Part shown: piece after piece, positions 1-18,290 of the stretch
How positions within the stretch are numbered: the first letter of the stretch is position 1
How the letters are laid out: each line of letters starts with the position of its first letter
Assembly: GCA_036679605.1 (NCBI GenBank)
Contig: JAZDCZ010000092.1
Coordinates: 1-24,116, forward strand
DNA length: 24,116 nt
Reading direction: 5' to 3'
Source: Gemmatimonadota bacterium
GTDB taxonomy: Bacteria; Gemmatimonadota; Gemmatimonadetes; Gemmatimonadales; GWC2-71-9
Position numbers and translations under genes: made by a program
Notes under the pieces: generated by a model
Told to the model about the DNA's origin: nothing
What the model saw: the letters and a program-made list of their open reading frames with translations, nothing else
The model's database searches: none

Positions 1-39
1 ATGTGTCGATTGGGCCGGTTTTTGTGTCGATTCAAAGCG
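1..39 (+). repeat. Junction repeat A1 with arm-like TGTGTCG direct repeats (2-8, 23-29); copy at 16319-16357
   Basis: atgtgtcgattgggccggtttttgtgtcg is identical at 1-29 and 16319-16347; 37/39 identity to position 39. Confidence 0.9.
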
Positions 40-57
40 GCAGATTCCGGCATGATC

Positions 58-111
58 GGTAGGGAAGTACGGCAGATCGTGCGTCCTACCAAGGGTTTAT
101 CCAGTTATTTA
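58..111 (+). repeat. Junction repeat A2: stem-loop GGTAGG..GTACG/CGTGC..CCTACC plus AT-rich tail; copy at 18230-18282
   Basis: ggtagggaagtacggcagatcgtgcgtcctaccaag(g)gtttatccagttattta, identical apart from a 1-nt indel. Confidence 0.9.
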
Positions 112-136
112 CCGGAAATCGTGCCGTTCTCGCTCC

Positions 137-256
137 GCTTTGGGAGCAGGGGGTCCCCGGTTCGAGCCGAGCGGCCACCCACGCTCTCGAAGATCCCCTC
201 GGTCTCCCGCGAGACGAGCGAGAATCGCGACAGCGATTCGCAGCTCCATCCGGGCG
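137..256 (+). pseudogene. 3' fragment of tRNA-Pro(TGG), att-like, with the T-loop interrupted by about 82 bp
   Basis: GC-TTTGGGA-GCAGG anticodon arm (TGG at 141-143), GGGTC variable loop and CCCGG-TTCGA T-arm at 137-165; complementary ATCCGGGCG resumes at 248-256; no D-arm or acceptor 5' strand upstream. Confidence 0.7.
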
Positions 257-508
257 AGGCCTTACTGGAGAATCGCCTAACGAGCGACGTCACATTAGGC
301 CCGACGAGGCATCCCACTCTACCCAAGTGCGCATTAACTTCCATCACAAATGTGTGACGTTCGTTGATCCGTTTTCTTGCTCTTGTGCAATTTGGCCTCT
401 CGGGTTTGCGCCCTATCTGGACCGGGAGGCATCGTGTTATACCATAAAACAAGACGGAAAGTGAAGCCTACGGCGTTCTGAAGCTGACTTCGGCAGGGGA
501 GAAAAAGG

Positions 509-907
509 TTGGAGATCAAGACAGCGGTCCTGGCTGATGCTGCCAATGTCAGCGTAGAGAATAAACTCAACATCACAGGGATTTTTAATCGGCTGAGTGG
601 CACGGAGTTTCCACTCACCCATCCAAGCATGGTTCTGGTCGTCCGCCTTGAGTACCATCCCTCAGAAGCCGGCGAGCATGCACTTACGATCAACATTGCG
701 GATGCCGATGGAACGAAGATTGCTGAGGGCGGGGGAAGCTTCAAACTGCCCAAACCACACACCCAAGAGCTACCGCCGATCGGACAGTTCTTACTCCCCT
801 TGCATGGGCTGGTATTTCAATCGCCGGGTGTATTCTCCTTTGATATCCTGGTTGATGGACGTTATGAGGGCTCGGCTCTCGTTCAAGTTGCGATTGCGGA
901 CAAGTAG
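509..907 (+). CDS. DUF6941-like small beta-sandwich protein
   Basis: N-terminal A(V)LADAAN..ENKLNITGIF and C-terminal F.SPG.FSFDILVDG patterns resemble DUF6941; TTG start; 9 bp upstream of hicA. Confidence 0.7.
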   Translation: MEIKTAVLADAANVSVENKLNITGIFNRLSGTEFPLTHPSMVLVVRLEYHPSEAGEHALTINIADADGTKIAEGGGSFKLPKPHTQELPPIGQFLLPLHGLVFQSPGVFSFDILVDGRYEGSALVQVAIADK

Positions 908-916
908 GGGCACGGC

Positions 917-1183
917 ATGCCTAGCCGCGCCTCCGAGAAACTTTTTGAGCGTTTGCGGAATACCAAGGCTGGATGGTCGGACAGGGATATCTACAAACTG
1001 CTGTCGGGCTACGGGTTTCTTTCCCGCGAGGGGAAGCACACGGTATATTCTCATAGAGACTACGACGATTTGAGCCTGACTGTGCCACGAAGCAAGCAGC
1101 TGAAGAAGATCTATCCGTCTCGAGCCGAGAAGCTGATTGACACACTTCTTGCTAGGGTGCCTCCTGGAGGGAAAGAGAAATGA
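917..1183 (+). CDS. hicA: Type II TA toxin, HicA family
   Basis: 88 aa basic protein, KLLSGYGF..REGKHTVYSH..LTVPR with the conserved His; ATGA overlap with a HicB-like ORF. Confidence 0.85.
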   Translation: MPSRASEKLFERLRNTKAGWSDRDIYKLLSGYGFLSREGKHTVYSHRDYDDLSLTVPRSKQLKKIYPSRAEKLIDTLLARVPPGGKEK

Positions 1184-1518
1184 AGAAAGATCTGACCTAC
1201 TACCAGGGACTCGGCTACAGGCGGCGGATTCAGCTAGTCACAGAGGACGAGGGTGTGCCGTTTTGGGTGGCTACATTCGAAGAATTGCCGGGATGTCTGT
1301 CCGACGGTGAGACTCGCTCGGAGGCGATTCTGCATCTAAACGAAGCCTTCGATGAGTTCATCACGGCCCATCTGGAGTGGCGGAAACCCATCCCGGAACC
1401 GGATCGGATCGTAAGGGCTCGAGGCAGATTCCGAAAATACTGGGACCAGAAAGACACCTCATCTGGCCCCAAGAGCAAGGTGGAGATGCCGAGGACGGAC
1501 CCCCTCGTCCGCACGTAG
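1180..1518 (+). CDS. hicB: Type II TA antitoxin, HicB family
   Basis: WVATFEELPGCLSDGETRSEAI...EFITAHLEWRKPIPEP, the HicB partial RNase H fold signature. Confidence 0.9.
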   Translation: MKKDLTYYQGLGYRRRIQLVTEDEGVPFWVATFEELPGCLSDGETRSEAILHLNEAFDEFITAHLEWRKPIPEPDRIVRARGRFRKYWDQKDTSSGPKSKVEMPRTDPLVRT

Positions 1519-1643
1519 TTGCACGAGGCCGAGAGGGACCATCTCTTTCTAAGACCACCCTCACTCAAACCCGTCTGAATGGTCTACCGGATTGGACTCC
1601 CGATGAGGCACCCAACGACCGTCACCGCAGTGCCGGATACAGC

Positions 1644-1931: not shown

Positions 1932-2120
1932 ATTCTCTCGCCACCGGATGAGCGCGGAGAACTATCGATGGTTGCGGGCCCGTGCATTCAAAGACTGGAC
2001 TGCGGCCACGGCCGGCTGGGCAAAACCGACGGATTGCTGCTGCGGCTTTACTCCGACCACCTCAAGTTGACAATATCGGTGGGAATGCTAGGGGTTGGGG
2101 GAGGCAACAGATCATTCGCC

Positions 2121-2148
2121 AGAAACCATATTCGACGCCCAGCGTATT
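2121..2148 (+). promoter_or_regulatory. Putative ECF sigma promoter (GAAAC-N16-CGTAT)
   Basis: agaaac catattcgacgcccag cgtatt, about 45 bp before ATG 2192; similar to the motifs at 4442 and 19437. Confidence 0.4.
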
Positions 2149-2191
2149 TGATATGCCAGGATACTCAACAGAGCCGGAGGGGTCCCGGGCC

Positions 2192-2947
2192 ATGGTTCCC
2201 ACGTTGACCCACACGTATCGAGTAGGCCTCTTCTTGGGCTTCGTCCTTGTGACGGCTCCGCTAATGGGGGCTTCAGCGGTCTCCGCCCAGGGCGTGGTGG
2301 GGATCGTGCTCGACACCGAGTCCCATAGCGCTATCGCGGGAGTCGAGGTGCTCCTCCGCACCGACAGCGGTACGGTCGCGGCGAGTGGGGTGACCGATCA
2401 GGAGGGTCGGTTCTTTTTGGCGATCGGCGAACGCGGGACGTACGCCCTGATCGCGAGCAGCCTGGGCTACCACACCAACTCGGGCTCCACTGTTGAGCTG
2501 AACGACACGGGGATGACGTGGGTGGAGGTCGAGCTCGCGCCCGACGCGATCGAGATCCCGGGGCTGACGGTAGTCACGCAGCAGAAGTACGTGTCGTCAC
2601 TCGCTCGCAGAGGGTATTACACGCGAAAGAGGCAGGGGCTTGGGAGGTACATCGAACCCACCGAGTTCGAAAAGAAGATGCACGTCCCCGTGAAGGAGCT
2701 CCTGCGCCGGACTCCGGTGTTTCGAGGTCGGGGACCCCTGGGCGGACGCTGGCCAACCGCCATCATCGTGAATGGAATGCAGAGGGGCCAGGACGTGCTC
2801 GACAGCCCCGAGCTCAGGGCGCGCTACATTGCAGGCATGGAAGTCTACAGCTCACTCGCTTCGGCCCCTCCTCAATTTCAAGGTCAAGTTGTCCTCGGCG
2901 AACGTGCATGTGGGCTTGTCGTGATCTGGACGGATTACGGAGGTTGA
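2192..2947 (+). CDS. Secreted carboxypeptidase-regulatory-like domain + TonB-plug-like domain protein
   Basis: GGAGG RBS, signal peptide ending VSA-Q, G.VLD...IAGVEV..TDQEGRF..SLGY, IAGMEVY, CGLVVIWT; start moved from 1982 to ATG 2192. Confidence 0.8.
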   Translation: MVPTLTHTYRVGLFLGFVLVTAPLMGASAVSAQGVVGIVLDTESHSAIAGVEVLLRTDSGTVAASGVTDQEGRFFLAIGERGTYALIASSLGYHTNSGSTVELNDTGMTWVEVELAPDAIEIPGLTVVTQQKYVSSLARRGYYTRKRQGLGRYIEPTEFEKKMHVPVKELLRRTPVFRGRGPLGGRWPTAIIVNGMQRGQDVLDSPELRARYIAGMEVYSSLASAPPQFQGQVVLGERACGLVVIWTDYGG

Positions 2948-3011
2948 GATTACGATTGTGCTGCTTGCTAGGGAGCATGACGATACGGCAGGGTCGCCAA
3001 GGGGAGTGCAA

Positions 3012-4116
3012 ATGCTGAGAATACGCCGACTCGGACTCTTGCTGCCCATGGCGTTGGCTGGGGCCTGCGGTGGGGACGGCGCGCCGGCCGACTTCACCGC
3101 GGTGGACAGCGCGGGCGTGACCATCGCGGTGTCGACGAGACCCGCCTGGAGTGTCGGTATCGAAGAGGCCTGGCGCATCGCTCCGGCTCCGGTTTTGGAC
3201 CTCACGCGCACAGGGACCGGGCCCGCGCACGAGTTTTACCGAGTCACCGACGCGACCCGCTTCCATGACGGACGGATCGTCGTCGCAAACAGCGGCACGA
3301 GCGAGCTGCGGATGTTCTCGGCCGAGGGGCTTCCGCTAACCACAGTCGGGCGCGACGGTGAGGGACCGGGAGAGTACAAGCGGATCATGAGCGTCCACCG
3401 CACTGAGGGGGACTCCCTCATCGTCCACTCATGGCCGACGCGGGTGAGCGTGCTTGACCCTGACCTCGGGTTCGTTCGCTCCTTTGCGCTCCAGAGCTAT
3501 GTGCGTGGTGTCCATCCCCTGGAGCACGGGTTCCTCCTCGCCACGCTCATCTTCCCCTCGTTACTCGAGTACGAAGGCGTCGAGCGCGTGATCCGCGCGC
3601 GTGCGCCCTTGGTTCGCCTGACGATGGCGGGCCAGGTCATCGACACCGTTGCGACCGCTGCGGGTGTCGAGGAGTTGATGACGGAGCGCGGTAGCTCACG
3701 GATCCTCTTCGGCAGGGACCTGTCGGTGGGAGTCGGCGCAGGCTCAATCGTTACAGGAGACGCGGAGCGCATGGAGTTTACGGTCCTCTCGCCCGACGGA
3801 GTCCCAACTCTGATCGCGAGGGTGCCAGAGTACCCCCTCGCGCTCTCCCGCGATGAGCTTGAGGCCGAGAAGGCCGGTCTCCTGGGGCCGAATCCCAGCG
3901 CACGAGGGCTGGACGCGGTGAGCAAGATGCCGATCCCAGATACCAAGCCCGCCTACACAGCTCTCGTCGTCGACGCCGAGGGGTATTTCTGGGCAGGGGC
4001 GTTTCACGGATTCGCCGCGCGTGGCCAACAGCCGCGCAGCTGGGAGATCTTCGACCGGCGTCTTCGCAGACTCGTTGGGAGTCGAGCACGTTCAGGTGCT
4101 GGGGTTGGCCCGATAG
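3012..4116 (+). pseudogene. 6-bladed beta-propeller lipoprotein with an internal deletion and frameshift near the C-terminus
   Basis: GGGGAG RBS, lipobox LAGAC, DSAGVTI, GRDGEGPGEY; after WEIFD (about 4056) the family tail GVFADSLGVEHVQVLGLAR* is in another frame (4057-4116). Confidence 0.8.
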
Positions 4117-4441
4117 CCCCACCCCGGAGTAAGAAAAGAGGTCCGGCAGGTGTCGCTACCCTGGCCAGACCATCAAAGAAACCAGCGATCGCTTTACTGC
4201 TACTGAAGGCTCATCGTGTCCATTCCGAATCGACTTGACGTACCGAACGCTGACTCCCGCAGCATCCGCCCGGTTCCCGTTCTATGTGTGACCTCTTCGT
4301 AGGCTGCCTTCTTCTCACCGCCACGGAGGATAGCAGCTGGTGGCTTGCTACCGGCTGATTCTATCCTGCGTCAGGTTAGGAGCAACCAAGTGCGCCACCG
4401 TTGTTCTTCACCGTTGTTTATTTTCGCGGAGCACGGCCCCG

Positions 4442-4469
4442 TGTAACATCTGACGGCAGTTGCGTATAT
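4442..4469 (+). promoter_or_regulatory. Putative ECF sigma promoter TGTAAC-N15-CGTATA
   Basis: TGTAACAT-N11-TGCGTATAT; identical boxes and spacing upstream of the paralogue (19410-19437, minus strand) with an unrelated spacer. Confidence 0.7.
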
Positions 4470-4515
4470 ACCATACGATGCTCGGCTCTGAGACCCGCCA
4501 CTCGGAGGACGTTCG

Positions 4516-5325
4516 ATGCGTGATCAGACCCACCAGCCCCTGAGAGACCGGTACTGCGCACTCTGGGTAGCGTGCGTAACGGGAGTCCTCAGCCTGTGCG
4601 CGCTCCTCCCCACCCAGGCCACCGCACAGGGCATATTCGGCGAGATACTCGACGAAGAGGCCGGGGGCCCCGTCGTCAGCGCCCAGGTGGCGCTTGCCGA
4701 TTCCGCCGGCAACGTGGTGGGCCAGGCGCTGTCCGACAACGCCGGCCAGTTCTTCATTGCGGTCGACATCGGAACGTACGCCCTGGTGGTCAGTCGGCTC
4801 GGCTACGAGACCGTGTATGTCACGGACGTGAAGCTTACGAACACGGACGTGCTACCCCTCCGGATTCGCTTGTCCCCGGACGCAGTCGAACTCCCGGGCC
4901 TCGTGGTCCAGGGTGATCGAGGGGTGCGCTACCTCGAGGTGAACGGATTCTACAAACGAAAGCGGTTGGGGTTCGGCCACCAGCTGAAAATCGAACGGGA
5001 CCGGCAGCTCCAGACATTGGAGCCGTCGGATTTCATTCGACGCATGCCGGACGTGGTCGTCCGTGGTGGTAGAGTCCGCAAGACGCGGGGCACCGCCCTG
5101 GGTAGCCCCTGCCTGCTTCAGGTCCTCGTGGACGGAATATATCGAGGTGTGGATCTCGATGGGGTGCTCGTGCTCTGGAACATCGAGGCGGTTGAAGTCT
5201 ACACTCGAGCGAGTAACGTTCCGGCCCAGTGGCAGTCTCTGGCCTTTCAGGGTTATCGGGATGAGCGGATGAACTTCCAACTCAAACCCACTTGCGGAAT
5301 CGTCGTAGTCTGGACCAAGCACTGA
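4516..5325 (+). CDS. Secreted carboxypeptidase-regulatory-like + TonB-plug-like protein (269 aa)
   Basis: GGAGG RBS, signal peptide ATA-Q, SRLGY, GFYKRKRLGFG, CLLQVLVDG, IEAVEVY, CGIVVVWTKH. Confidence 0.85.
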   Translation: MRDQTHQPLRDRYCALWVACVTGVLSLCALLPTQATAQGIFGEILDEEAGGPVVSAQVALADSAGNVVGQALSDNAGQFFIAVDIGTYALVVSRLGYETVYVTDVKLTNTDVLPLRIRLSPDAVELPGLVVQGDRGVRYLEVNGFYKRKRLGFGHQLKIERDRQLQTLEPSDFIRRMPDVVVRGGRVRKTRGTALGSPCLLQVLVDGIYRGVDLDGVLVLWNIEAVEVYTRASNVPAQWQSLAFQGYRDERMNFQLKPTCGIVVVWTKH

Positions 5326-5656: not shown

Positions 5657-5800
5657 GTTTCGGTTCGTGAGGTCAAGCCGTTTCTGCAGAAGTGCTTGTC
5701 GCATGGATCGGACTCCACCAAGAAGCGCGCCCGGAGGCTTGTGAACCGTCTTGGAGAGGCAGGCTATGATGAATTCAGAGACCTTCTGGACGACAACTAA
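5657..5800 (+). pseudogene. C-terminal remnant of an unknown larger protein
   Basis: Startless frame VSVREVKPFLQKCLSHGSDSTKKRARRLVNRLGEAGYDEFRDLLDDN*; amphipathic helical and protein-like; not in the ORF track. Confidence 0.45.
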
Positions 5801-5990
5801 TTTGCTGGAGCGCTCGTGGCGAGGCTTGGCCGGGCACTCCACATAACAATCAGTTCCCGGCTCCGTTCTCTACGCTCACTACGACGATCACGGCTCGCAT
5901 TCGCGAGCCGCGACGGCATCTCTGAACGTTAAGCGAAGGGCGCGTTCGGATTCAGGGTCGGCTTGGCGAGGACTCGAAGAGAGAGGTGGC

Positions 5991-6076
5991 CATGGTTCAT
6001 GAACGGTGAACATAGCGACCGCGACTTCCATTTAGCGACTATATGTGCCATGTTCATGGTTCATGAACACTGAACA
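5991..6076. promoter_or_regulatory. Duplicated palindromic operator (GTTCATGAAC core)
   Basis: catggttcatgaacggtgaaca (5991-6012) and catggttcatgaacactgaaca (6055-6076), 20/22 identical; the second extends to tgttca-tg-gttcatgaac-ac-tgaaca (6051-6076) and abuts the RBS. Confidence 0.8.
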
Positions 6077-6086
6077 AGGACTCGGT

Positions 6087-6620
6087 ATGGGTCGCCAGAG
6101 CACTTTTCTGAAACCACATGACGTGTGCGTCGCACTGCAGCTTGCGATCACGCCGCGCTTCACCTTCCGCGATATCGCTGAGGCAGTGGGACTGAGCGTA
6201 GGCGAATCACACAACTCCGTCGGGCGCCTAGAAGGCGCTCGGCTTTTTCAGCCGCACCTAGACTCGGTGAACATCCAGGGGCTCCTTGAGTTTCTGGTGA
6301 GTGGTGTCCCCTATGCGTTCCCGGGTGTTTTGGGGCCGGAGACACGAGGCGTTCCGACCGCTCATTTCGGTCCGGCCTTTGAGTCCATCGCAGCGGTGGA
6401 CCCGGTCGTTTGGCCTAGCGTGAAGGGGCGGGCTCGGGGCCTCAGCCTGCCTCCTCTGTGCAAGGCAGCCCCCGACTTCATGGAGCGGAACGAGGTGCTG
6501 TATCGCATGCTCACGATCGTGGATGCCCTCCGGATCGGGCGAGCCAGAGACCGAGCCATCGCCCGAGACCTGCTGGTGCGGGAGCTCGGAGCCGACAAGG
6601 GTATGGTGAGTGACTTTTGA
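6087..6620 (+). CDS. Winged-HTH protein, putative AbiEi-like antitoxin/regulator
   Basis: LKPHDV..FRDIAEAVGLSVGESHNSVGRL HTH, EFLVSGVPYAFP, RGVPTAH, DALRIGRARDR; AAGGA RBS; TTGA-coupled to the nucleotidyltransferase. Confidence 0.75.
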   Translation: MGRQSTFLKPHDVCVALQLAITPRFTFRDIAEAVGLSVGESHNSVGRLEGARLFQPHLDSVNIQGLLEFLVSGVPYAFPGVLGPETRGVPTAHFGPAFESIAAVDPVVWPSVKGRARGLSLPPLCKAAPDFMERNEVLYRMLTIVDALRIGRARDRAIARDLLVRELGADKGMVSDF

Positions 6621-7312
6621 ACAATCGTGACGTTCTGGTCGCAGTGGCGCAGCAGATCGAACCGCTGCTCGACGAGGTCGTGTTTGTAGGTGGGCAGGTC
6701 GCTGCACTTCTTGTGACGAACCCCGGCGCAACGCGAGTTCGCCCAACCACAGACGTGGACATTGTCATCGAGACCTCAACTCGTGTTCAATACCATGAAG
6801 TGGAGGCAAGGCTTCGTGGTCTCGGCCTGCGACACGACAGAGAAGAAGGCGCTCCGATCTGCCGGTGGGTGACCCCTCAGGGTGGATACCGACTGGACGT
6901 TATGCCGACCCAGGGAGATGTCTTGGGCTTCAGCAACCAATGGTATGATCTCGCCCTGGAACTTGCTTGGCCTTTTGAGCTAGCGCCTGGACTAGAGATC
7001 CGCCTTCCTCCAGCCCCGGTCTACATAGCCACAAAATGGGATGCTTTCCATGACCGTGGTGATGGCGACTACCTGGGCAGTCATGATCTTGAGGACTTGA
7101 TCTCCGTCGTAGCCGGTCGCGATGAAATGGCCGGTGAGGTTCTGGATATGCCCGAACACCTGCGGGCCTATATCGCCGAGTTCGCACACGAATTCTTGAG
7201 TCGCAGCGAAATGGCATACGCCCTGCAGGGTGCCCTTCCAGATTCAGTACAAATCCCCGAATTGATCAGCGAAGTAACTCAGCGATTTGAGGGCCTTGCG
7301 GCGGTGGAGTGA
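6617..7312 (+). CDS. Nucleotidyltransferase, AbiEii-like (putative type IV TA toxin)
   Basis: VFVGG...RPTTDVDIV (GG..DxD), ATKWDAF..R, SHDLED motifs. Confidence 0.75.
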   Translation: MNNRDVLVAVAQQIEPLLDEVVFVGGQVAALLVTNPGATRVRPTTDVDIVIETSTRVQYHEVEARLRGLGLRHDREEGAPICRWVTPQGGYRLDVMPTQGDVLGFSNQWYDLALELAWPFELAPGLEIRLPPAPVYIATKWDAFHDRGDGDYLGSHDLEDLISVVAGRDEMAGEVLDMPEHLRAYIAEFAHEFLSRSEMAYALQGALPDSVQIPELISEVTQRFEGLAAVE

Positions 7313-7516: not shown

Positions 7517-7524
7517 CCTCGCGC

Positions 7525-7581
7525 ATGACCACAACTCTCCTGGACTTCTCGAAGCCACACGTCCTGAAGAACGACACGGAG
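7525..7581 (+). pseudogene. N-terminal fragment resembling a second HigA-type antitoxin
   Basis: MTTTLLDFSKPHVLKNDTE resembles the P..I/L...EY N-terminus of HigA proteins, then runs into junction B. Confidence 0.4.
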
Positions 7582-7591
7582 CGCCGCGACC

Positions 7592-7760
7592 CATACGTAT
7601 GTTTCGATGTCAAATGTACGTACACGGTGCACAGTGTACGCAGCGAATGCACCAAGGGCCCGTGCGGCCCGCCCATCAGCAGCCGTCCACACCCTGCAGG
7701 GCGTAGCGTTCTCGCTCTGCATGGGAGCAGCGAGTCCCCGATTCGCAGCTCCATCCGGGC
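7592..7760 (+). repeat. Junction B: TGTACG direct repeats plus degenerate tRNA-Pro fragment
   Basis: catacgtatg palindrome 7592-7601; tgtacg at 7615 and 7635; 7707-7740 resembles 125-159; 7739-7760 is identical to 234-255 (22 bp). Confidence 0.75.
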
Positions 7761-8002
7761 CCGGCCCTCGGCGGTTGAGTCCCTAGTCGAGAACGGTCTG
7801 CCTGGGAGGATCAACTCCACTAACGGTGGTAAGCGCCTCACCCGAGCAGCACGAGCCCGTGTGGTGCGGTGCCGTGGGGGAGTCTGGCGAAGACCCTGGA
7901 CATGTGGGTATTCTACGCTCGGAAGCGTTCGAGACTATAGGCGCGAACCCTGCCGAAGGTGTCGAACAACAGGAGCTAGGCCGCCTCTACTCGGGAGAAT
8001 CC

Positions 8003-8566: not shown

Positions 8567-8705
8567 CATTCAGAGGCCTAACACCATTAAGAAGGACCGG
8601 GTCAAGCGGACGCATGTATCCTTATGTGACGGGCCGCGCCCGTCGCGGGTTTGTGTTCGTAGGCGGCGGATCCAAAGGGTGTCGGAGGAGAAGCTGGGTG
8701 AAGGC

Positions 8706-9299: not shown

Positions 9300-9412
9300 G
9301 CTGCGGACCCAGCCGGCGACAACTTCGGATCAACTTTGAAGTGCAACGGGGGTCGGGTGTTGAGTTTGCGAGCGATGCAACAGCCACGAGTTCCCCACTA
9401 GAGAGATCCGAG

Positions 9413-10627: not shown

Positions 10628-10774
10628 GGTGCTCCGCCCCTCGAGGGTGGCCTGAAGGGAAGGGACGCTCACCGGCGATCAAGGCTGCCCTGAAACTTCT
10701 GGCGGGTAAGGTGGCTTCTATTGGCGACGCGCACGCAGTGGAGAAGGCAGCCTTCGAGATGATCGGAGAACGAG

Positions 10775-11128
10775 ATGGAGCAGTGCGGAGCGGATGGGGC
10801 AACTGAGAAGATCAGGCGAGTGCTTAGGTCCTGGAGAGGTGTCTCCATTTCGGACCACCCTGCCGGTGGAACGGTCTTCGAGGTGAAGGGACAAGAGATC
10901 GGGCAGATTCTCGGCAACATGCTGGTTGGCATCAAATTCGCGGCGGATGTCATAGCGGAACTCGAGGCCCGCCAGGAGGTCGACTCAGTCCACCTGGACG
11001 GTAGCGACTCAGGGCGCGTCACGGTGAACCTCAACCGCCCCACCGATGTTTCCCATGCCATCTCACTCCTCGAGCGCTCCTATTGGGACATCCTCATGCT
11101 CGAGGAGCTCAAGCAGCAGTTGAGTTGA
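10775..11128 (+). CDS. DUF5519/luciferase-domain-like small protein, divergent
   Basis: SWRGV...HPAGGTVF.VKGQEIG..SGRV......DVSHAISLLERSY pattern. Confidence 0.6.
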   Translation: MEQCGADGATEKIRRVLRSWRGVSISDHPAGGTVFEVKGQEIGQILGNMLVGIKFAADVIAELEARQEVDSVHLDGSDSGRVTVNLNRPTDVSHAISLLERSYWDILMLEELKQQLS

Positions 11129-11174
11129 GTTTGGGCAGACGATGGGCTGCACTTCGGTTCCATATGGTTATGCC

Positions 11175-12401
11175 ATGGTGAAGATCGCTGGCTGGCTGAT
11201 CGCCGCCCTGGTCTTTGCCTGTACTCCGGGGGATGCCCCAGTCCGCACGGCGGAGGTACGCGACAGCGCCGGGATTTCGGTCGTCGAAAATTGGATGGAT
11301 CCGTCAGTCGAGGATGGCTTCTGGTTCCTGGATCCCGACCCGGTTCTAGACATTGGAGCTGACGGGGGCGAGTCCGGCCCTTTTCTCTTCCAGGTAGTCG
11401 GGGCGTTTCAGGTCGAGGCCACCCGCGAAATGGTCATTGCGAACAGGGGGACCTCGCAGGTCCTGGTTTTCGACTCCGCGGGGACCTTCCTCAGGACGAT
11501 TGGCGGAGCCGGTCAGGGTCCCGGCGAGTTGGAAGGCCTGTTGGGACTGCACCGATGTGGTGATGGGCGCTTCCTGGTGCATGAGGGCCGAAGAGCGAGC
11601 CTCTTCCATGTCGGCGGCGAATTCCTCGATGTGACGCCACCAGAGTGGCGCGACATCTTCAACTTCGAGGGTGTTTCATCGGATTGCTCCCGCTTCTTGT
11701 TCCTCGAGTCTCAACCGCCTGCCAAGTTACAGGAGGGCTTGGTCGGGTCCTGGTCGGGAGCTCTTTCTTGGGGAGACCTGTCCACTCACGAACGCACTCC
11801 TTTGGTGACGATCCCGTACTTTGACGTGGTGGGGCGAAGCTTGGACGGCCGGCTCCAGTGGGCCCTGTACCCCTGGTCGAGGCGGTCCAGCTGGGTTGTC
11901 TCGGGAAGTCGCGTGATTCTCAGTACTGCCAAGGATACGGAATTTCAGGTATGGGATCTGGACCACGGCCTCGTGAAGTTGGTGCGCTGGACGGGCGGTA
12001 GACCGCGGGTGACTGCCGCGGACCGGAACCAGTATGAACGGGTTCGTGACCGGTTTCTGGCGAGACGCGCCGACCTAGCCCGCTTAATGCCCCCGTTCGG
12101 GGAGATTCACGTTCCCGACCTGAAGCCTGCGCTCTTGGACATGTTCCGGGACGACCAGGGGAACGTATGGGTCCAGGAGTACCCATTTTGGTACGGCGGT
12201 TGGGGCGGCGGTTGGGAAAACCGACGCGGCGCTGATCCCGTGACGTGGACCGTGTTTGCTCCGTCCGGTCGGATGCTCGGTTCGGTGAAGGTCCCTGCGG
12301 AGATCGAACTACTTGCGATCCATAGGTACCACGTTGTCGCACTTTGGAAGGACGATCTTCAGGTCGAGCACGTGCGCCTATATCGATTGAACAAGGGATA
12401 G
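11175..12401 (+). CDS. 6-bladed beta-propeller lipoprotein
   Basis: Lipobox LVFAC, VRDSAGISVVEN, GGAGQGPGEL, DDQGNVWV, W.VFAPSGRMLG, DDLQVEHV. Confidence 0.88.
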   Translation: MVKIAGWLIAALVFACTPGDAPVRTAEVRDSAGISVVENWMDPSVEDGFWFLDPDPVLDIGADGGESGPFLFQVVGAFQVEATREMVIANRGTSQVLVFDSAGTFLRTIGGAGQGPGELEGLLGLHRCGDGRFLVHEGRRASLFHVGGEFLDVTPPEWRDIFNFEGVSSDCSRFLFLESQPPAKLQEGLVGSWSGALSWGDLSTHERTPLVTIPYFDVVGRSLDGRLQWALYPWSRRSSWVVSGSRVILSTAKDTEFQVWDLDHGLVKLVRWTGGRPRVTAADRNQYERVRDRFLARRADLARLMPPFGEIHVPDLKPALLDMFRDDQGNVWVQEYPFWYGGWGGGWENRRGADPVTWTVFAPSGRMLGSVKVPAEIELLAIHRYHVVALWKDDLQVEHVRLYRLNKG

Positions 12402-12494
12402 ATTTGCATCGGTCTCGCTCCTGAGGGTTCAGCTCAGGTCGATCCAGAGTGAGGGCTGCTTCGTCGCACACAGAATCCGAATGGGGAGAGTATC

Positions 12495-13715
12495 TTGATG
12501 ATGATCACAGGGCTCTGCTTTTGTGCCGGGACCTGGCTTGGGGTGAACGTCGCGGTGACTGGTATGCCTCAGGACCGGGTGGTCTTTGAGGTCCGTGACA
12601 GCGCTGGGGTTCGGATCGTGGAGAGCGTCGTTCATAACGCCACCCCGCCCCACACCCTGAGTGGGATGCCCGTATTCGATCATTCCGGACTAAATGCGAA
12701 TGATCCGTTCTTCGAGTTACGCGGTGGCCTGTTCTGGGATGACGGGAGTGTTGTGGTGACCGAAGCAACTCGGGTCGTTCATATGGACCGATCCGGCAAG
12801 ATCGTGTTCAAGTTGGGGAGGTCGGGAGAGGGACCGGGAGAGTTTCGCGGGATCAGGGGATTAGCCTTCGCCAATCCCGATCAACTCGTGGTAGTCGACA
12901 GTCGACTGCGCCGGCTTACGGTGATACGAGATGGGGTCGTGGAGGATGCCCGCCAAATCCGTGGAATTGAACCAGATAGACCCTGGGACATTCACGCATT
13001 GGATAGTCTGTCGTTTATTCTCGGGACTGCGGTCACCGGTAGTTCCATGCCGGGGAATCGGGTGGACGGGCGCCTGCGGCTGCCGTTCCACGTCTTCAGA
13101 ATTTCACGGGATGGAGATGTGATGAATGCATTGCCTCCCTTCCGCGGTGCGGAGGTGGTTTTTGCCCGCGTCGGGGGTACAGCATTGTTTGGTGAGGCTC
13201 CTCTGAGCAGGAGCGGTACCGTCGCGGCTCTGGGAAGCAACGTGGTATTGAGCGAGGGGGAGGGGATCGAGATCAAGATCCTGGATGTTGAGGGTGGCCT
13301 CGAACGGATCTACCGGGTTCAGGGCATCGACTTATCGGTCGATCGGCAGGCTCTTGAGGCTTATCTCTCACCACGGATTGAGCGAGTACCCGGTAAGGGG
13401 CCCCAAGAAAAGCTCCGTGACGTTCTGTTGGATGATCTCCCAGACCAACGGCCGGGAGTCAGCGCCCTGAGGGTCTCCGACGACGGCGATATCTGGGTCC
13501 GGGAGTACGCCTTTGAAGGCGAGCGGGATTACGAGCTTTGGCGGGTGATCGATGGGGCCACAGGGCACTATTGTGGGGCCTGGGCGTTGCCTGCGGGTTT
13601 CTCCCTCTGGGACATTCGAGGGGACGAAATCCTAGGCTCCTGGACCAGTGCTCTCGGTGAGGAGTCCGTGAGGGTCTATCGATGGCGAGAAGAGGGACCA
13701 AATGCGTGTGATTAA
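12495..13715 (+). CDS. 6-bladed beta-propeller protein, secreted/membrane-anchored
   Basis: GGGGAG RBS, hydrophobic N-terminus, VRDSAGVRIVES, GRSGEGPGEF, DDGDIWV, LGEESVRVY. Confidence 0.85.
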   Translation: MMMITGLCFCAGTWLGVNVAVTGMPQDRVVFEVRDSAGVRIVESVVHNATPPHTLSGMPVFDHSGLNANDPFFELRGGLFWDDGSVVVTEATRVVHMDRSGKIVFKLGRSGEGPGEFRGIRGLAFANPDQLVVVDSRLRRLTVIRDGVVEDARQIRGIEPDRPWDIHALDSLSFILGTAVTGSSMPGNRVDGRLRLPFHVFRISRDGDVMNALPPFRGAEVVFARVGGTALFGEAPLSRSGTVAALGSNVVLSEGEGIEIKILDVEGGLERIYRVQGIDLSVDRQALEAYLSPRIERVPGKGPQEKLRDVLLDDLPDQRPGVSALRVSDDGDIWVREYAFEGERDYELWRVIDGATGHYCGAWALPAGFSLWDIRGDEILGSWTSALGEESVRVYRWREEGPNACD

Positions 13716-14883
13716 CCGGTTGACCAGCGTGATCGCTGTGCTGCTTGCAGGCTGCGCAGCCGAGGCCAAAGCACCGTCTGACGTACTCTTTACAGAGCTC
13801 GATGGCGTTGCGTTGACCGTTAATACACGACCGCCGCAAGACCTCACGCGCTTTTCGCTTTCACCCCCTGTAATCACACTTGAAGTGCCGGCAGATGACC
13901 CGCAGTTCTTTCGCGTGTACAACGGATTCGAGGATAGGTCCGGCTTCGTAACCGCAAACACGGGAACCGGCCATGTTCACTTCTTTGGCCCCTCCGGCAA
14001 ACTTCGCTTCGTGGTTGGGGGCGAGGGCGATGGACCGGGGGAATTCAAGGACATTGCGCAAGTCAGCTCGTACCTTTCGGATTCCGTTCTGGTTTATGAT
14101 TCCCATCACGGCCGGATGACCATTCTTGATGAATTGGGCCAAGTTGGAAGGACAGCCACGCTGCAATTGCAGACTCCGCCAGGTAGGCCGTCGGACATAA
14201 TTTGGCCCCTTTCGGATGGAGGGTTGGTTTCGCGACTGAATCTCCGTCGTCAGGGGGCTCAGTCGTTAGGGATACAACGTACCCGATCCGCAATTCTTCG
14301 GTATGACGCCGAAGGCAGTCTTCTCTCTTCAATCGCCGAGATCCCCGGCGAAGATTTCGAGTATGGCGCCCTTCGGCAGAGCGCCGGAGGAGGGACCCAT
14401 TGGGTGGGGAGAACCCCACCCTTCGGCGGGACGGCGGTGGTAACGGTCGGTCTCGATCGAGTGTTCGCCTCGGTGGGTGACGGCTTCGATATAGGGGAAT
14501 TCGACCTCGACGGTACCATGCGTCGACGGGTGCGGTGGTCGCTTGCCGATACCGAGGTGACCCCGGCTGAAGTTGCTGAATTTATGGACAAATGGTTCAG
14601 TGACGGCACTGAGTACCCTTTTCCGCTACCGGATCCTGCGCAGGCCTATTCGGACTTTCTTGTGGCTCCTGAAGGAGAGTTGTGGGTCAGCAAATATGGG
14701 CCGGGATTCTACCCGCTCACCAGACTTTGGCGGGTCTTCGCAGAAGATGGTCAACTTCTCCACGAAGTGGATGTAGGGGCCAGGACCCGGGTACTTGGGA
14801 TCCTATCGGGTGGCCGTGTGCTTGCGGTCAGGTTGGACGAATTGGATGTGGAGACGGTCCACGTATTCGAGATAGTTCAGTGA
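13702..14883 (+). CDS. 6-bladed beta-propeller lipoprotein
   Basis: Lipobox LLAGC, GGEGDGPGEF, PEGELWV, DELDVETV; 14-nt overlap with the upstream paralogue. Confidence 0.88.
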   Translation: MRVINRLTSVIAVLLAGCAAEAKAPSDVLFTELDGVALTVNTRPPQDLTRFSLSPPVITLEVPADDPQFFRVYNGFEDRSGFVTANTGTGHVHFFGPSGKLRFVVGGEGDGPGEFKDIAQVSSYLSDSVLVYDSHHGRMTILDELGQVGRTATLQLQTPPGRPSDIIWPLSDGGLVSRLNLRRQGAQSLGIQRTRSAILRYDAEGSLLSSIAEIPGEDFEYGALRQSAGGGTHWVGRTPPFGGTAVVTVGLDRVFASVGDGFDIGEFDLDGTMRRRVRWSLADTEVTPAEVAEFMDKWFSDGTEYPFPLPDPAQAYSDFLVAPEGELWVSKYGPGFYPLTRLWRVFAEDGQLLHEVDVGARTRVLGILSGGRVLAVRLDELDVETVHVFEIVQ

Positions 14884-14969
14884 GGCGAACTGCCCTGATC
14901 TACGGGCGGTCGATATTAATCTGGAATTCCAAAAAAGGGGTAGTGCGTCTCCGGCTCCTTGGCCCAACA

Positions 14970-16169
14970 TCAGCGTACCTCCCACACCTCGATGTACTCC
15001 TCGTCGAGGCGGGTGTGGAGGCGCACGGCCACACGTCCGTCCCGGATGTCCAACACTTCGTTAATCCGCAGTATTCCCCAGAACTCCGTGGGCAACGAGA
15101 CCCGTCCGTAGGGCATGCCAGTGGAGTCGAACACGACCCACAGTCTTCGCCGTTGACCGGGGCGCTTTCCGCCTGCCACCCACACCCGACCCTGGTCGTC
15201 CATGGAGAGTGCGCCCAACGGCGGCACCGACGTCCTTACCGGGCCCGTACGCCACGCCTCAATGGCAAGTGGGGTGTCCATCGGGATCTTCGCCAGCAGG
15301 ACCTCCCGGTACTCCTGGATCTCGTCGGGGGTCGCTGGGTCGGGGGCCGCAGTCCCCGAGAGAACCCACTCGAGGCGTCCGGCCAGGTCGAACTTCCGAA
15401 CGTCGATTGCGTCCGTCGATCCGATCACCACGTGACCGCCTCGCCCCGCTGCCACCGCCATCCTGGAGAACACAATCGGTACGAAGAGCTTGCCTTCGGG
15501 TACGGTCGTAAAAGCGCGCTCCGTCGAAGGCCAGAGGCCGAGTGTATCGAGGGATCCCGAAGGCAGTATGCGAAGCAGGGGTGTGGTATCCCTCACCTCT
15601 CCGCTTGAGCCAAAGTGCCCGAACCTCCCGTGTACCGCCAGTACCGTGTCACGGGCGATGGTCAGCGGCAGGACGGCAGATAGGGCATCTCGATTATCGA
15701 GCCGCCGCGAGTGCTCGAATTGAAATTCGCGTCCGAGTCTCGTGAGGCGCCGTAGGGCCTGATCGTAGACCCAGACCCCGGCGGAATCGGCCTGCAGCCA
15801 CTTTGGATGTCGGTACTCGCCAGGGCCCTCCCCCGGGCGTCCGATCCGTCGAACTTCATCGCCAACGGAATCGATGAGGACGAGTTCCAAATCGCTTTCA
15901 CTCGCCAGTAGCAGGGAGCCGTCGGCCAGGAAGGCGCCATCCCCGATACGGGACAGAACCGTCTCGTCTGGATCGGTACGGAAGATCAACTTCGCCGTGA
16001 GCAACGGGGCCTGAACCTCCTCGAGCTTGCCAAAACTCACCACCCGAACCCCTGCGGAGTCGGCGACGTTGACCTCGGAGATGCGTTCGCTCCCGTCGTC
16101 AGCACCCCGACAGGCAGCCGATAGGCATGCGACGAGGGCGAGGCCGAGTAGAGTGCGGTGCTTCACCAT
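14970..16169 (-). CDS. 6-bladed beta-propeller lipoprotein
   Basis: Lipobox LSAAC, DSAGVRVV, GRPGEGPGEY, DDQGRVWV, LDEEYIEVW. Confidence 0.88.
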   Translation of the reverse strand: MVKHRTLLGLALVACLSAACRGADDGSERISEVNVADSAGVRVVSFGKLEEVQAPLLTAKLIFRTDPDETVLSRIGDGAFLADGSLLLASESDLELVLIDSVGDEVRRIGRPGEGPGEYRHPKWLQADSAGVWVYDQALRRLTRLGREFQFEHSRRLDNRDALSAVLPLTIARDTVLAVHGRFGHFGSSGEVRDTTPLLRILPSGSLDTLGLWPSTERAFTTVPEGKLFVPIVFSRMAVAAGRGGHVVIGSTDAIDVRKFDLAGRLEWVLSGTAAPDPATPDEIQEYREVLLAKIPMDTPLAIEAWRTGPVRTSVPPLGALSMDDQGRVWVAGGKRPGQRRRLWVVFDSTGMPYGRVSLPTEFWGILRINEVLDIRDGRVAVRLHTRLDEEYIEVWEVR

Positions 16170-16304
16170 GCGTTTCGCGTCTCATCGAGGGGGGGCGGGC
16201 ACATCCCAGTCGGCATGCCTTCGGCCCGACTTGGCCCAAGCTGTGCGCTTAAGATGCAGTTCACACCGGAGCAGCGCGAGCCCGTGCGGTACAGGGGGCA
16301 CTGG

Positions 16305-16459
16305 ATGTGTGTCACTTCATGTGTCGATTGGGCCGGTTTTTGTGTCGGGTCAAAGCGCAGCTTGCCTTGGATCGGGCCGTATCGACACATCAACTCGCCC
16401 AATGGGGCTGAAAGTCCAATGTCTAAGCCGATTAGTCCCTGATACTGGAGCAGGGGGTC
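16305..16459 (+). repeat. Junction C: TGTGTC arm-like repeats plus a 13-bp tRNA-Pro fragment
   Basis: tgtgtc at 16308, 16320 and 16341; inverted copy atcgacacat at 16381-16390; ggagcagggggtc at 16447-16459 is identical to 143-155. Confidence 0.8.
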
Positions 16460-16574
16460 AACTCCAGCTGCCGTGGAGTGCGGAAACAATCCCTAAGCGT
16501 TAGCGGACACTAGCACGCACGAGTCGGGTAGAGCCTCGAGGCCCGAGAGAATTCGGTTAGGAACGCGTCTGCCT

Positions 16575-17771
16575 CTACCGCCTCTGAGCTCTGCTGACGC
16601 GAAGGAGCGCAATGCGCTCCCGATCGAACTGGTCCTTCATCAGGACGGCCAACTGACCTTGCCCATCAGCAGCCATTAGCCCAACGGTGCCCTCGGGCGC
16701 AGGAAGCCACCCTAATCGACCCGAATCGAGATCCAATCGCCACCAGCCGGGCGCGGGCTCATCGCGCAAGTGAAACCTCTCGATCCACAGCGAGTTGATC
16801 CCATCATACACCAGCTTTGAAGCAAGCTGGTGAGCACCGGGGCTTTGTAGCTCACCGTACGGATCTTCATCAGGATGATAGCCGCGAAATGCTTCGGCCA
16901 GCTGATTAACCACCGCGTTCCATTTAGCGTCTCCGATTTCTAGGTTGATACCACCGATAGGTAGCCGCCCGGGAGGGCCGCCTCCGACTATCCGAAAGCT
17001 CAGAGCTACCGCACGCCCTTCAAGCCAGACAACGCAGCCGTCGGGTGACGCGAGCCAGGTCGGCTCCACTCCATACGGAGCGTTCAACCGGCGCGCGGGT
17101 CCGCTCTCACCCTGTGAAATCACCTGTTCCTGTCCGGGAATCGACGCGACCACGGATCTTACGCTGCCATCTTCACCAACGTGTAGAATTGGAATTGGTC
17201 GCGTCGCGATGCTCCCGGGAAGGAGCGGGGTAGAGCCCGGCCTCCATCTTGTCATCACCAATGCACCGCCGGCATCGAGAGGGATGGCATCATAATACTG
17301 GTTCATCGTTGAGGATTGGATCGTCAAGGTGCCGACAACCTCCCCGTCGGCCCGAAAGCGTGTGATGCGTCGATTATTCGAATCGAACGCGCCAATGCCC
17401 CTTCCTCCATTAGTAACGTGTGCGAAGTAGAGTTGACCGAACTCCCCAGGGCCGCCGCCGCTTCTCCCGAACCGCCCGGTCAAGCTTAGCGTCCCGTCTA
17501 GAAGGAGTATCTCGTTTGTGCCCGCGTTGGCGACTTGAAGTACGCTTCCGGAGAGGAAGCCGGCTGAAGTCACACGATAGAGCTCAGTTTCCAACGCGGT
17601 CATTGCCACAGTCCGAGCCGTGAGAGGTTCTCCCGAATGAAACACCACCGGATTTCCAGATTCGGCTAGTGATCCCAAACCGTGGCACAAACCAGACTGC
17701 GCCTCGATCGGCGTCGTGACGCTTAGAAGCGTCGTGATGGAGAAGGTGATGATGGTGGTGGAACGAGCCAT
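16575..17771 (-). CDS. 6-bladed beta-propeller protein with Sec signal peptide
   Basis: GGGAG RBS, signal ending IEA-Q, VANAGTNEI, GRSGGGPGEF, DQFDRERI. Confidence 0.85.
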   Translation of the reverse strand: MARSTTIITFSITTLLSVTTPIEAQSGLCHGLGSLAESGNPVVFHSGEPLTARTVAMTALETELYRVTSAGFLSGSVLQVANAGTNEILLLDGTLSLTGRFGRSGGGPGEFGQLYFAHVTNGGRGIGAFDSNNRRITRFRADGEVVGTLTIQSSTMNQYYDAIPLDAGGALVMTRWRPGSTPLLPGSIATRPIPILHVGEDGSVRSVVASIPGQEQVISQGESGPARRLNAPYGVEPTWLASPDGCVVWLEGRAVALSFRIVGGGPPGRLPIGGINLEIGDAKWNAVVNQLAEAFRGYHPDEDPYGELQSPGAHQLASKLVYDGINSLWIERFHLRDEPAPGWWRLDLDSGRLGWLPAPEGTVGLMAADGQGQLAVLMKDQFDRERIALLRVSRAQRR

Positions 17772-17786
17772 TATCTGGTCACTCCC

Positions 17787-17982
17787 TCAGAGTGTGATGT
17801 GCTCAAGCGCCTGAAGGGCATCCTTCAAGGCACGTTCGTCGGTGAAGCGATGCGTTACGGCGCCATCACACAGCCTTCTGAGCTTTCCCGACTCTGGGGA
17901 GATTAGGTTGGCTAGAGCGTACCTAGTGATAGCGTACTCCGTTTCATCCAGTGACCCGCCCGTCGAAATGGAATTCCACACG
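17787..17982 (-). pseudogene. C-terminal gene fragment truncated by the IS3 end
   Basis: Protein-like frame WNSISTGG...ALKDALQALEHITL* starts exactly at the IS terminus (17983) and ends just before the RBS of the next gene. Confidence 0.5.
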
Positions 17983-18105
17983 TGAACCGCACCGGGATCA
18001 TCGGAGACTGTTTGGCTTGAGTGTCAGGGGCTCGGATTGAGCCGCCTGACGTGAACGGTACTGCGCCTCGTACTCGGCTGGGGGTACGTGGTCGAGGGGT
18101 CCGAA
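17983..18105 (-). mobile_element. IS3-family (IS51 group, IS6110/IS401-like) right-end remnant
   Basis: Terminal repeat TGAACCGCACCGGGATCATCGGAGACT resembles IS6110 TGAACCGCCCCGG...GGAGACT; transposase tail GPLDHVPPAEYEAQY...LKPNSLR*. Confidence 0.85.
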
Positions 18106-18155
18106 TACGCCGTTTGATCCGTGACCGTCTGCGTGAGAATGAAGTAAGCGGCCAT
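18105..18155 (-). pseudogene. DUF1330-like N-terminal fragment
   Basis: GAGGAG RBS then MAAYFILTQTVTDQTAY, fused directly to the IS3 remnant. Confidence 0.55.
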
Positions 18156-18229
18156 TCCTGACTCCTCGGTATTCAGGCGGGTGACGGGGTCGTTGGAATT
18201 CATGCGGACAACATGCGTTTGAGGGCTTT

Positions 18230-18290
18230 GGTAGGGAAGTACGGCAGATCGTGCGTCCTACCAAGGTTTATCCAGTTATTTAATGGGAGC
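18230..18290 (+). repeat. Junction D: copy of 58-111 followed by TGGGAGC
   Basis: 53-bp near-identical repeat; tgggagc at 18284-18290 equals 141-147 (too short to be significant alone). Confidence 0.8.

What the first reader, a model, noticed from the sequence alone, without database searches (positions are those of the whole stretch)
1..18290. Tandem array of tRNA-Pro(TGG) att-like junctions delimiting cargo segments: candidate integrase-fed gene-accretion system
Seen: four non-coding junctions in the same orientation. A (1-256) has TGTGTCG direct repeats, a stem-loop and a 29-bp tRNA-Pro 3' piece. B (7592-7760) has TGTACG direct repeats and a degenerate copy of the tRNA piece. C (16305-16459) has the same 39-bp repeat as A and a 13-bp tRNA piece at similar spacing. 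D (18230-18290) has the 54-bp repeat of A plus TGGGAGC. The tRNA match decays in order A>B>C>D. Known: tyrosine integrases often recombine in tRNA anticodon arms and displace the 3' part to the far end of the element, next to arm-type direct repeats; repeated integration makes tandem arrays with the oldest unit farthest from the intact tRNA. Inference: segments of about 7.6, 8.7 and 1.9 kb were added serially and carry surface-protein paralogues and TA modules but no integrase. This would be an integron-like, trans-mobilised array that uses tRNA att sites instead of attC.
Basis: partly seen in the sequence, partly recalled or inferred. Interest (0 to 1): 0.85.

Follow-up and report, generated by a model that had tools for sequence, protein, structure and literature searches.

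The report
Decayed island stack at tRNA-Pro copies
In an uncultured marine-type Gemmatimonadota bacterium, a row of imported gene blocks is separated by broken leftovers of the docking site that mobile islands use in a proline tRNA gene; the blocks have no cut-and-paste enzyme of their own and some hold ordinary integron cassettes, which makes this a clear example of a known pile-up process and not a new kind of integron.

Summary
Junctions A, C and D are real. Three more junctions, and the start of A's arm, lie on neighbouring contig C372. The roughly 140-bp arm is the distal att arm of a Gemmatimonadota tyrosine-integrase island family. G404 holds a complete element, and G240 holds an integrase beside a tRNA-Pro(TGG) whose 3' half matches A exactly.

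- B's TGTACG repeats are the inside of a broken attC site, not arm sites.
- Decay is not ordered over the seven junctions (longest exact tRNA match 10, 18, 39, 29, 9, 13, 7 nt).
- This assembly's own tRNA-Pro(TGG) differs at 6 of 45 positions and heads a separate array; the contig may be mis-binned.
- Only A keeps a whole arm plus core.

The right side of the junctions is a tRNA-linked repeat that follows intact tRNAs in relatives, not the family's second arm. True attC sites (10 intact) and stumps of an integron-like recombinase sit inside the units. G438 has similar integrase-free stacks behind intact tRNAs.

Verdict: site-specific accretion with decay (CIME-like), probably left by a helper island that came and went. 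A maintained trans-mobilised cassette system is not shown.

The parts
1..136 (+). Junction A: distal (P) att arm of a tyrosine-integrase island family; arm-type repeats at 2, 11 and 23; an IHF-like site at 90-99 (consensus recalled, not tested). The first repeat lies just before the window, at the end of C372.
137..165 (+). tRNA-Pro(TGG) 3' half from the anticodon stem to the T-loop; identical to the intact tRNA of G240, but not to this assembly's tRNA
166..256 (+). 82-nt tRNA-linked repeat inserted in the T-loop, then 9 nt of tRNA tail (248-256)
509..1518 (+). DUF6941 gene, HicA-like gene (no Pfam hit; inferred from its neighbour), HicB-like gene (Pfam hit below cut-off); a trio that looks the same by eye lies in a G438 unit
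1982..5325 (+). Two CarboxypepD_reg-domain genes and one beta-propeller gene
5840..5935 (+). Intact attC site of the type found four times on C372
   Evidence: E 9e-22, window copy not in the profile; z -2.1
6045..7312 (+). HTH gene plus AbiEii-like nucleotidyltransferase gene, a likely type IV TA pair (both Pfam hits below cut-off)
7524..7581 (+). 5' stump of a higA-like gene, 57 of 58 nt identical to the HigBA cassette on C372
7572..7672 (+).
7707..7864 (+). Junction B: arm end plus degenerate tRNA piece, joined to the tail of the tRNA-linked repeat and its flank (86% to C372 junction J2)
7826..16169 (.). Segment B-C: lipoprotein-like gene, GNAT acetyltransferase, luciferase-like domain gene, and five beta-propeller-like genes (two with Pfam hits, the others linked by BLAST)
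14944..16357 (+). 1.4-kb stretch (propeller gene plus arm start) 92% identical to the end of C372
16307..16459 (+). Junction C: first 51 nt of the arm, an inverted arm piece (95% to C372 J2), and 13 nt of tRNA
16575..17771 (-). Segment C-D: one beta-propeller-like gene
17982..18120 (-). 3' remnant of an IS3-family transposase gene with a likely IS end (the end is judged from recall)
   Evidence: about 50% identity; 2 of the 8 listed hits are annotated IS3 transposase
18230..18290 (+). Junction D: middle 53 nt of the arm, without arm-type repeats or core, plus a weak 7-nt tRNA match

Best explanation
The region is part of a stack, at least 55 kb long if C372 and C427 join, of integrase-free island remnants that piled up at a tRNA-Pro(TGG) gene by site-specific accretion and were then fixed by small deletions. 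Shown: the arm is the distal att arm of a Gemmatimonadota island family that carries an integrase next to the target tRNA and crosses over at anticodon arms. The units lack that integrase and its P' arm. Their left ends are host-type tRNA flanks (terminator plus tRNA-linked repeat). Some units hold integron cassettes. Inferred: a complete helper island at the head of a donor stack excised together with the unit behind it (cis-mobilisation), integrated at the recipient tRNA, and later left through its own att sites, so that a segment running from host flank to arm stayed behind. Repeated rounds built the stack. Also inferred: the intact tRNA is missing because the contig broke at an IS upstream, probably in a co-binned organism of another family. 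How the first such unit arose is unexplained.
For: Complete element in G404: tRNA-Arg(CCG), two short repeats, convergent 394-aa integrase (phrog_1, E 5e-51), 24 kb of DNA, then the arm with the same repeat and an identical tRNA half. In 4 genomes an arm lies upstream of, and opposite to, 12 of 25 near-full-length integrases within 30 kb, against 2, 2 and 3 for the other three geometries (arm lists incomplete). G240 has this integrase family beside a tRNA-Pro(TGG) identical to the window's half. In metagenomes 30 of 32 full-length arms are followed by a sense tRNA half. L243 and L195 show arm, tRNA half, P' and an integrase 3' stump, which is decay caught midway. The right-hand repeat lies within 400 bp behind an intact tRNA in 18 of 30 loci. 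G438 has two stacks that start with an intact tRNA plus this repeat, have no PF00589 hit on either contig, and carry similar cargo. The concept is described in PMC5704250 and 10.1101/2020.12.28.424599 (passages read).
Against: The head of the array is not assembled, so tandem position at a tRNA is not shown for this genome. The C372-C427 join rests on a 102-bp overlap that is itself the repeat. Shared parts of arms J1, J3, A and D are 98-100% identical, which fits local duplication equally well. No remnant of the family integrase lies on either contig, so stepwise loss is not seen here. In G193, 14 arm matches, most with tRNA-Ala halves, lie at 8 places on both strands, and G100 has 20 or more scattered arms, so arm-plus-tRNA junctions need not sit in a stack at the tRNA. 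Composition does not settle mis-binning.
Confidence: 0.68

Rival explanations
1. One reading: a maintained cassette system in which integrase-free units are excised and inserted one by one at tRNA att sites by an integrase elsewhere, perhaps with the tRNA-linked repeat standing in for the second arm.
For: Near-identical arms around different cargo. The pattern of arm, tRNA half and T-loop repeat recurs with two unrelated arms in G438 and in 3 metagenome contigs. G438 stacks begin at an intact tRNA with no integrase on the contig. Weak contig joints from other organisms change partners near junction edges, 256 to 1988 and 5655 to 16307; sides are only 24-31 nt and likeness was set at 85.
Against: Six of seven junctions are broken, each in a different way. 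No P' arm repeats lie right of any junction. The only family-related integrase in G000 is 29-36% identical to the candidates and has other arm repeats. The joints fall at arm starts and repeat ends, not at the tRNA core, which fits deletion better.
Confidence: 0.12
2. Local tandem duplication of one attR with its flanks, followed by deletions, IS insertion and integron cassette turnover, without repeated integration.
For: Shared arm parts are 98-100% identical. Patches are shared between units: 1.4 kb at 92%, a 320-bp integron leader at 89%, a higA stump at 98%. Right sides are host-type flanks, as a duplication would copy.
Against: Most cargo is unrelated between units. The propeller paralogues are only 23-33% identical, and shared patches range from 68 to 98%, which points to arrivals of different ages. 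Two arm variants (A type, C type) alternate.
Confidence: 0.14
3. The repeats are a MITE- or REP-like element with no link to tRNA integration.
For: The arm is dispersed in 20 or more copies in some relatives. The right-hand repeat is a multi-copy element.
Against: In G000 all copies are on one strand of two contigs. The arm is placed against integrase genes and is followed by tRNA halves. It has no conserved hairpin.
Confidence: 0.03
4. The order of units is an assembly artefact of mixed strains.
For: The contig ends at the repeat, and the bin has 6.3% contamination.
Against: Run X1, possibly the source, holds 8 listed pieces with no differences at depth 10.6-16.1 along the window. The junction copies differ enough to be assembled apart. 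No listed piece bridges junctions B, C or D.
Confidence: 0.03

Closest known systems
CIMEs and site-specific accretion (ICESt1/ICESt3 family; IME-CIME tandems), as reviewed in PMC5704250 (passages read)
   Same: Tandem units at one target gene that have lost integration genes, keep att sequence, and can be carried in cis by a complete neighbour.
   Different: A CIME keeps attL and attR; here the left ends lack the P' arm and look like host tRNA flank, and most right ends are broken. The integrase family and phylum differ.
Tycheposon-fed tRNA islands of Prochlorococcus (10.1101/2020.12.28.424599; passages read)
   Same: Transient integrase elements at tRNAs, including tRNA-Pro(TGG), leave flanking DNA, degenerate elements and partial tRNAs that build an island. 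Complete relatives here carry an integrase plus xis-like and primase/helicase-like genes.
   Different: Here a conserved 140-bp arm marks most junctions and integron cassettes lie inside the units. Tycheposon hallmark profiles were not tested.
Tandem tDNA islands of Islander (PMC4383910; passages read)
   Same: Anticodon-centred crossover with a displaced 3' tRNA fragment.
   Different: Islander counts a tandem only if each member has its own integrase; none here does.
CALINs (attC clusters without an integron integrase; definition seen in passages of 10.1101/2022.02.06.479319)
   Same: Nine attC sites on C372, plus one intact and one broken site in the window, with TA cassettes and no IntI beside them.
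   Different: They are passengers inside the tRNA-bounded units. The 5' stumps beside the attI-like sites belong to a XerD-like recombinase without the IntI-specific segment.

Membership tests
CIME / accreted tandem | Integration and transfer genes lost | tested here: met
   0 of 35 PF00589 matches lie on C372 or C427; no remnant of the family integrase by tblastn at E 0.01
CIME / accreted tandem | attR retained | tested here: inconclusive
   Whole arm plus core only at A (1 of 7 junctions); partial at J1, J2, J3, C and D; almost gone at B
CIME / accreted tandem | attL-side (P') arm retained | tested here: not met
   No arm-type repeats right of any tRNA piece; the right side is a host-type repeat
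CIME / accreted tandem | Located in tandem at the intact target gene | tested here: inconclusive
   Head not assembled; the assembly's tRNA-Pro(TGG) differs at 6 of 45 positions and has its own array; met in the analogous G438 stacks
CIME / accreted tandem | Cis-mobilisation by a neighbouring complete element | not testable with these tools
   Needs an excision assay
Islander-type tandem island array | [quoted passage not shown] | tested here: not met
Integron (applied to the tRNA junctions) | Cassette sites are folded attC hairpins | tested here: not met
   Arm alignment of 24 sequences: 6 predicted pairs, none compensatory, -3.4 kcal/mol
Integron (applied to the tRNA junctions) | Adjacent IntI and attI | tested here: not met
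   The two IntI over the TIGR02249 cut-off lie on C73 and C407
CALIN (applied to the attC sites) | Several attC sites behind ORFs with no IntI nearby | tested here: met
   9 on C372 and 1 intact in the window, with TAAC and GTT ends and internal inverted repeats; IntegronFinder itself was not run
Tycheposon | Hallmark integrase, replication and small serine recombinase profiles | not tested
   Profiles not available; the window has no such genes
MITE / REP | Dispersed copies in both orientations, terminal inverted repeats | tested here: not met
   In G000, one strand of two contigs only

The most novel reading that the evidence does not exclude
In these Gemmatimonadota, integrase-free units bounded by one att arm and a tRNA-linked T-loop repeat form a regular, trans-mobilised cassette class served by several integrase families. 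Some units are themselves small integrons run by a XerD-like recombinase that lacks the IntI-specific segment. That would be a two-level gene-capture system: cassettes within tRNA-docked cassettes.
Probability: 0.12. Interest if true: 0.75.

Novelty: new member of a known kind. Interest (0 to 1): 0.38.

Why it matters
As it stands, this is a well-resolved case of island accretion in a little-studied phylum. It defines a 140-bp marker for an island family found in 48 of 150 class genomes searched. I found no paper holding all of Longimicrobiales, integrase and mobile genetic elements, and no Gemmatimonadota island paper among the 20 of 373 listed. Integrase-requiring island finders skip such stacks. 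If one-armed units move in trans, or if the IntI-segment-less recombinase handles attC sites, both would extend what is known of site-specific gene capture and are directly testable.

Tried and rejected
- ARAGORN finds no tRNA in the window or on C372.
- Rfam gave 1 sub-threshold hit in 64 kb, on C372, dismissed.
- The arm as a structured RNA: rejected.
- C426 as the head of this array: rejected. Its tRNA has its own integrase, an identical attR at 42831, a decayed copy at 48744, then tRNA-Arg(TCT).
- A P' site with TGTGTC-type repeats next to an integrase was not found in G000 or among the 11 pattern matches in 5 genomes, so the exact cognate integrase is unidentified. Candidates with similar repeats sit at tRNA-Ile in G166 and tRNA-Arg in G275.
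- C's inverted arm part gave only 4 weak hits in 151 genomes.
- Tetranucleotide ranks 52 and 62 of 77 contigs do not decide mis-binning.
- DNA of 8600-16300 matched 3 of 400 class genomes, over 0.3-0.4 kb only.
- The genome contigs pattern scan gave 3 loci; two look like chance matches in coding DNA, one is a Longimicrobiales chromosome with three arms.
- Reads: only contigs were available. No circle or core-to-core excision joint appears among the 15 of 22 joints shown, which is no evidence of absence. No RNA holder was listed.
- BLASTN of the IS remnant against plasmids found nothing; the protein search did.
- Earlier scan notes had nothing on this genome or sequence.
- The term tRNA-linked repeat is recalled; it occurred in none of the 10 papers listed.
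- No supplements were read.
Full report
Setting. The window is the whole contig C427 of a 6.7-Mb, 434-contig assembly rated 96.5% complete and 6.3% contaminated. Named records from a scan with an arm pattern read Gemmatimonadetes, Gemmatimonas and Longimicrobiales; only the last holds full arms. Runs that share part of the window are marine or sediment metagenomes where labelled (X1-X4 laid).

Observation. A, C and D are real and far above chance: the longest exact repeat is 37 nt, against at most 14 in 60 Markov controls. Contig C372 (31.8 kb) ends with 102 bases identical to the window start and holds three more junctions, J1, J2 and J3, that bound units of 7.7, 7.0 and 9.5 kb. The overlap is the repeat itself, so the join is likely but unproven. 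All copies are on the + strand of these two contigs. The alignment of junctions shows a different internal loss at each. The longest exact matches to the tRNA half are 10, 18, 39, 29, 9, 13 and 7 nt from J1 to D, so there is no age gradient. Only A has a whole arm plus core.

What the arm is. The left part of J3 matched 22 of 400 class genomes: 19 of 102 in family f7 and 0 of 83 in the assembly's own family f1. A profile from 24 copies matched 48 of 150 genomes: f7 28 of 37, f8 17 of 38, f2 3 of 11, f1 0 of 33. The arm has a variable repeat part, a conserved middle, an IHF-like site (consensus recalled) and no conserved fold. G404 holds a complete element: tRNA-Arg(CCG), a hairpin, two short repeats, a convergent 394-aa integrase (phrog_1), a small xis-like gene and a P-loop primase/helicase-like gene, a XerC-like gene, cargo, and 24 kb away the arm with the same repeat and an identical tRNA half. 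The xis-like and primase-like labels are by eye; neither had a library hit. For 25 near-full-length integrases in four genomes (24 hand-picked from the 56 matches, plus G404's), an arm lay upstream on the opposite strand within 30 kb in 12 cases, against 2, 2 and 3 for the other geometries. I had only 18 of 20, 4 of 9, 12 of 19 and 1 of 1 arm positions. G240 has this integrase family beside a tRNA-Pro(TGG) whose 3' half equals the window's piece. A metagenome scan with an 18-nt arm pattern gave 74 distinct loci, 45 with the arm. Of 48 arm hits, 16 were truncated; the 32 full ones were followed by tRNA-Ile 23 times, Pro(GGG) 4, Pro(TGG) 2, Asn 1, an antisense tRNA-like piece 1, and other sequence 1. 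L243 and L195 show arm, tRNA half, P' and an integrase 3' stump. The arm is therefore the distal att arm of an island family. In some genera the family is promiscuous, with arms beside non-tRNA targets and inside integrase genes.

What the right side is. It lacks arm-type repeats. It matched 64 of 151 f7 genomes. In 18 of the 30 loci returned it lies within 400 bp behind an intact tRNA, and 1 of 30 has an integrase remnant. It is a duplicated tRNA end with an insert of about 80 nt in the T-loop; in A the insert splits the tRNA half into 29 and 9 nt. Each junction is thus an attR-type join with a host-type flank. G438 shows the same design with the head intact: tRNA-Pro(GGG) and tRNA-Cys each start a stack with this repeat, followed by units of 3.6-5.0 kb that end in other arms plus tRNA halves. 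None of its 12 PF00589 matches is on those contigs, and the cargo includes propeller genes and what looks by eye like the DUF6941-HicA-HicB trio.

Integron parts. C372 has nine attC sites of two types; the window has one intact site at 5840-5935. B's TGTACG repeats lie in a broken attC of a third type, fused by a short shared sequence to a higA stump. Units after J1 and J3 begin with the 5' stump of a recombinase gene and a conserved leader that ends at a GTT triplet, as an attI would. Full-length relatives score below the IntI cut-off (206 and 216 against 265 bits), with a two-piece match that for one ends at profile position 171 and for the other resumes at 235, consistent with a missing IntI-specific segment. 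In G273 one precedes 25 attC hits of the same two types within about 30 kb, 5 of them in the training set. Two canonical IntI lie on other contigs of G000, whose own attC sites do not match these profiles.

Host mismatch. The assembly's tRNA-Pro(TGG) on C426 differs from the piece at 6 of 45 positions and heads its own closed array with a related integrase and different arm repeats. Mis-binning is likely; my estimate is about 0.65. At least 10 tRNA types have a second, dissimilar copy on small contigs. The genome is 6.7 Mb against 2.0-4.4 Mb for the 24 family members. The arm is absent from f1 in the samples searched. The window's CPXCG gene has its two best hits in f7 (66 and 60%), while a second copy sits on C113. 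Composition is inconclusive.

Strain evidence. Laid contigs of run X1 match the window without differences in 8 listed pieces; X1 may be the source. Joints from other organisms link 256 to 1988, 5655 to 16307 and 166 to 16255. Sides are 24-31 nt at likeness 85, so they are weak hints, and they fall at arm starts or repeat ends, not at the core.

Mechanism. Shown: arm identity, target, absence of integrase, host-type left ends, broken cores. Inferred: delivery of units in cis by a helper island that later excised (0.68). Rivals are local duplication (0.14), a maintained trans-mobilised cassette system (0.12), MITE/REP (0.03) and assembly artefact (0.03). G193 complicates any simple stack model: 14 arm matches, most with tRNA-Ala halves, lie at 8 places on both strands of one contig, with only a stump of the integrase.

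Comparison. The process matches CIME formation and accretion (PMC5704250, passages) and tRNA-seeded island growth with flanking DNA left behind (10.1101/2020.12.28.424599, passages). PMC5812530 passages add unstable SXT/R391 tandems that recombine. Islander requires an integrase per member (PMC4383910, passages). Pavlovic 2004 and Bellanger 2011 were seen only as reference titles. Strict CIME membership is not established because P' is missing, but the array works like one. Eight earlier scan notes describe integrase-free stacks at other tRNAs; they are unchecked and not evidence, but they suggest the pattern is common. Supplements were not read; island tables there could already list members of this family.

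Verdict. A real, instructive but decayed stack; new member of a known kind; interest 0.38.

Noticed in passing
L080/L272 (G273:C1:1094774-1122000); stumps at L001:7829-8254 and C372:22480-22780: A XerD-like recombinase with an N-terminal extension scores below the IntI cut-off, apparently lacks the IntI-specific segment, and precedes 25 attC hits; it may be an atypical integron integrase.
   Followed up: partly
G193:C1, 2.47-4.03 Mb (L043, L045, L115-L120): 14 arm matches, most followed by tRNA-Ala(TGC) halves, at 8 places on both strands, with only an integrase stump; the pattern search found no intact matching tRNA in this 93%-complete genome.
   Followed up: partly
G100, G144, G055 (L141-L180): The integrase family is highly amplified (32 matches in G100) and inserts at many non-tRNA sites, into its own integrase genes, and into tRNAs in either orientation.
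   Followed up: partly
L305, L307 (G438:C236:78000-85861 and C42:1-10300): Two integrase-free stacks behind intact tRNA-Pro(GGG) and tRNA-Cys, each with its own arm type; a cleaner test case than this window.
   Followed up: partly
window 166-247; L274-L303: A widespread repeat of about 80 nt inserted in the T-loop of duplicated tRNA ends (Pro, Cys, Arg) in family f7. In several tRNA-Ile halves a different short insert interrupts the T-loop.
   Followed up: partly
L003 (G000:C426:35894-54000): A separate array at the assembly's own tRNA-Pro(TGG): integrase, xis-like and AAA_25 genes, attR at 42831, decayed copy at 48744.
   Followed up: yes
G000:C343:60600-61500, 115200-115900, 131700-132400, 149000-149600: Clusters of 24 divergent tRNA genes on a low-GC 155-kb contig, suggesting a large mobile element.
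   Followed up: no
G000:C88, C93, C154, C162, C214, C401: Several long (85-89 nt) tRNA-like genes with a large variable arm, called Val(CAC) or Ala(CGC) by ARAGORN.
   Followed up: no
L001:399-6327: A 1713-aa Rhs protein with a C-terminal M23 peptidase domain and a following lipoprotein-like gene, just before junction J1.
   Followed up: no
window 18541-24116: More CarboxypepD_reg and propeller paralogues and a CPXCG gene continue beyond D, so D may not be the end of the accessory region.
   Followed up: partly
window 7839-7865 and 16264-16290: A 27-nt motif (89% alike) lies just after junction B and just before junction C's arm; contigs in two runs join the tRNA piece almost directly to it.
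   Followed up: no
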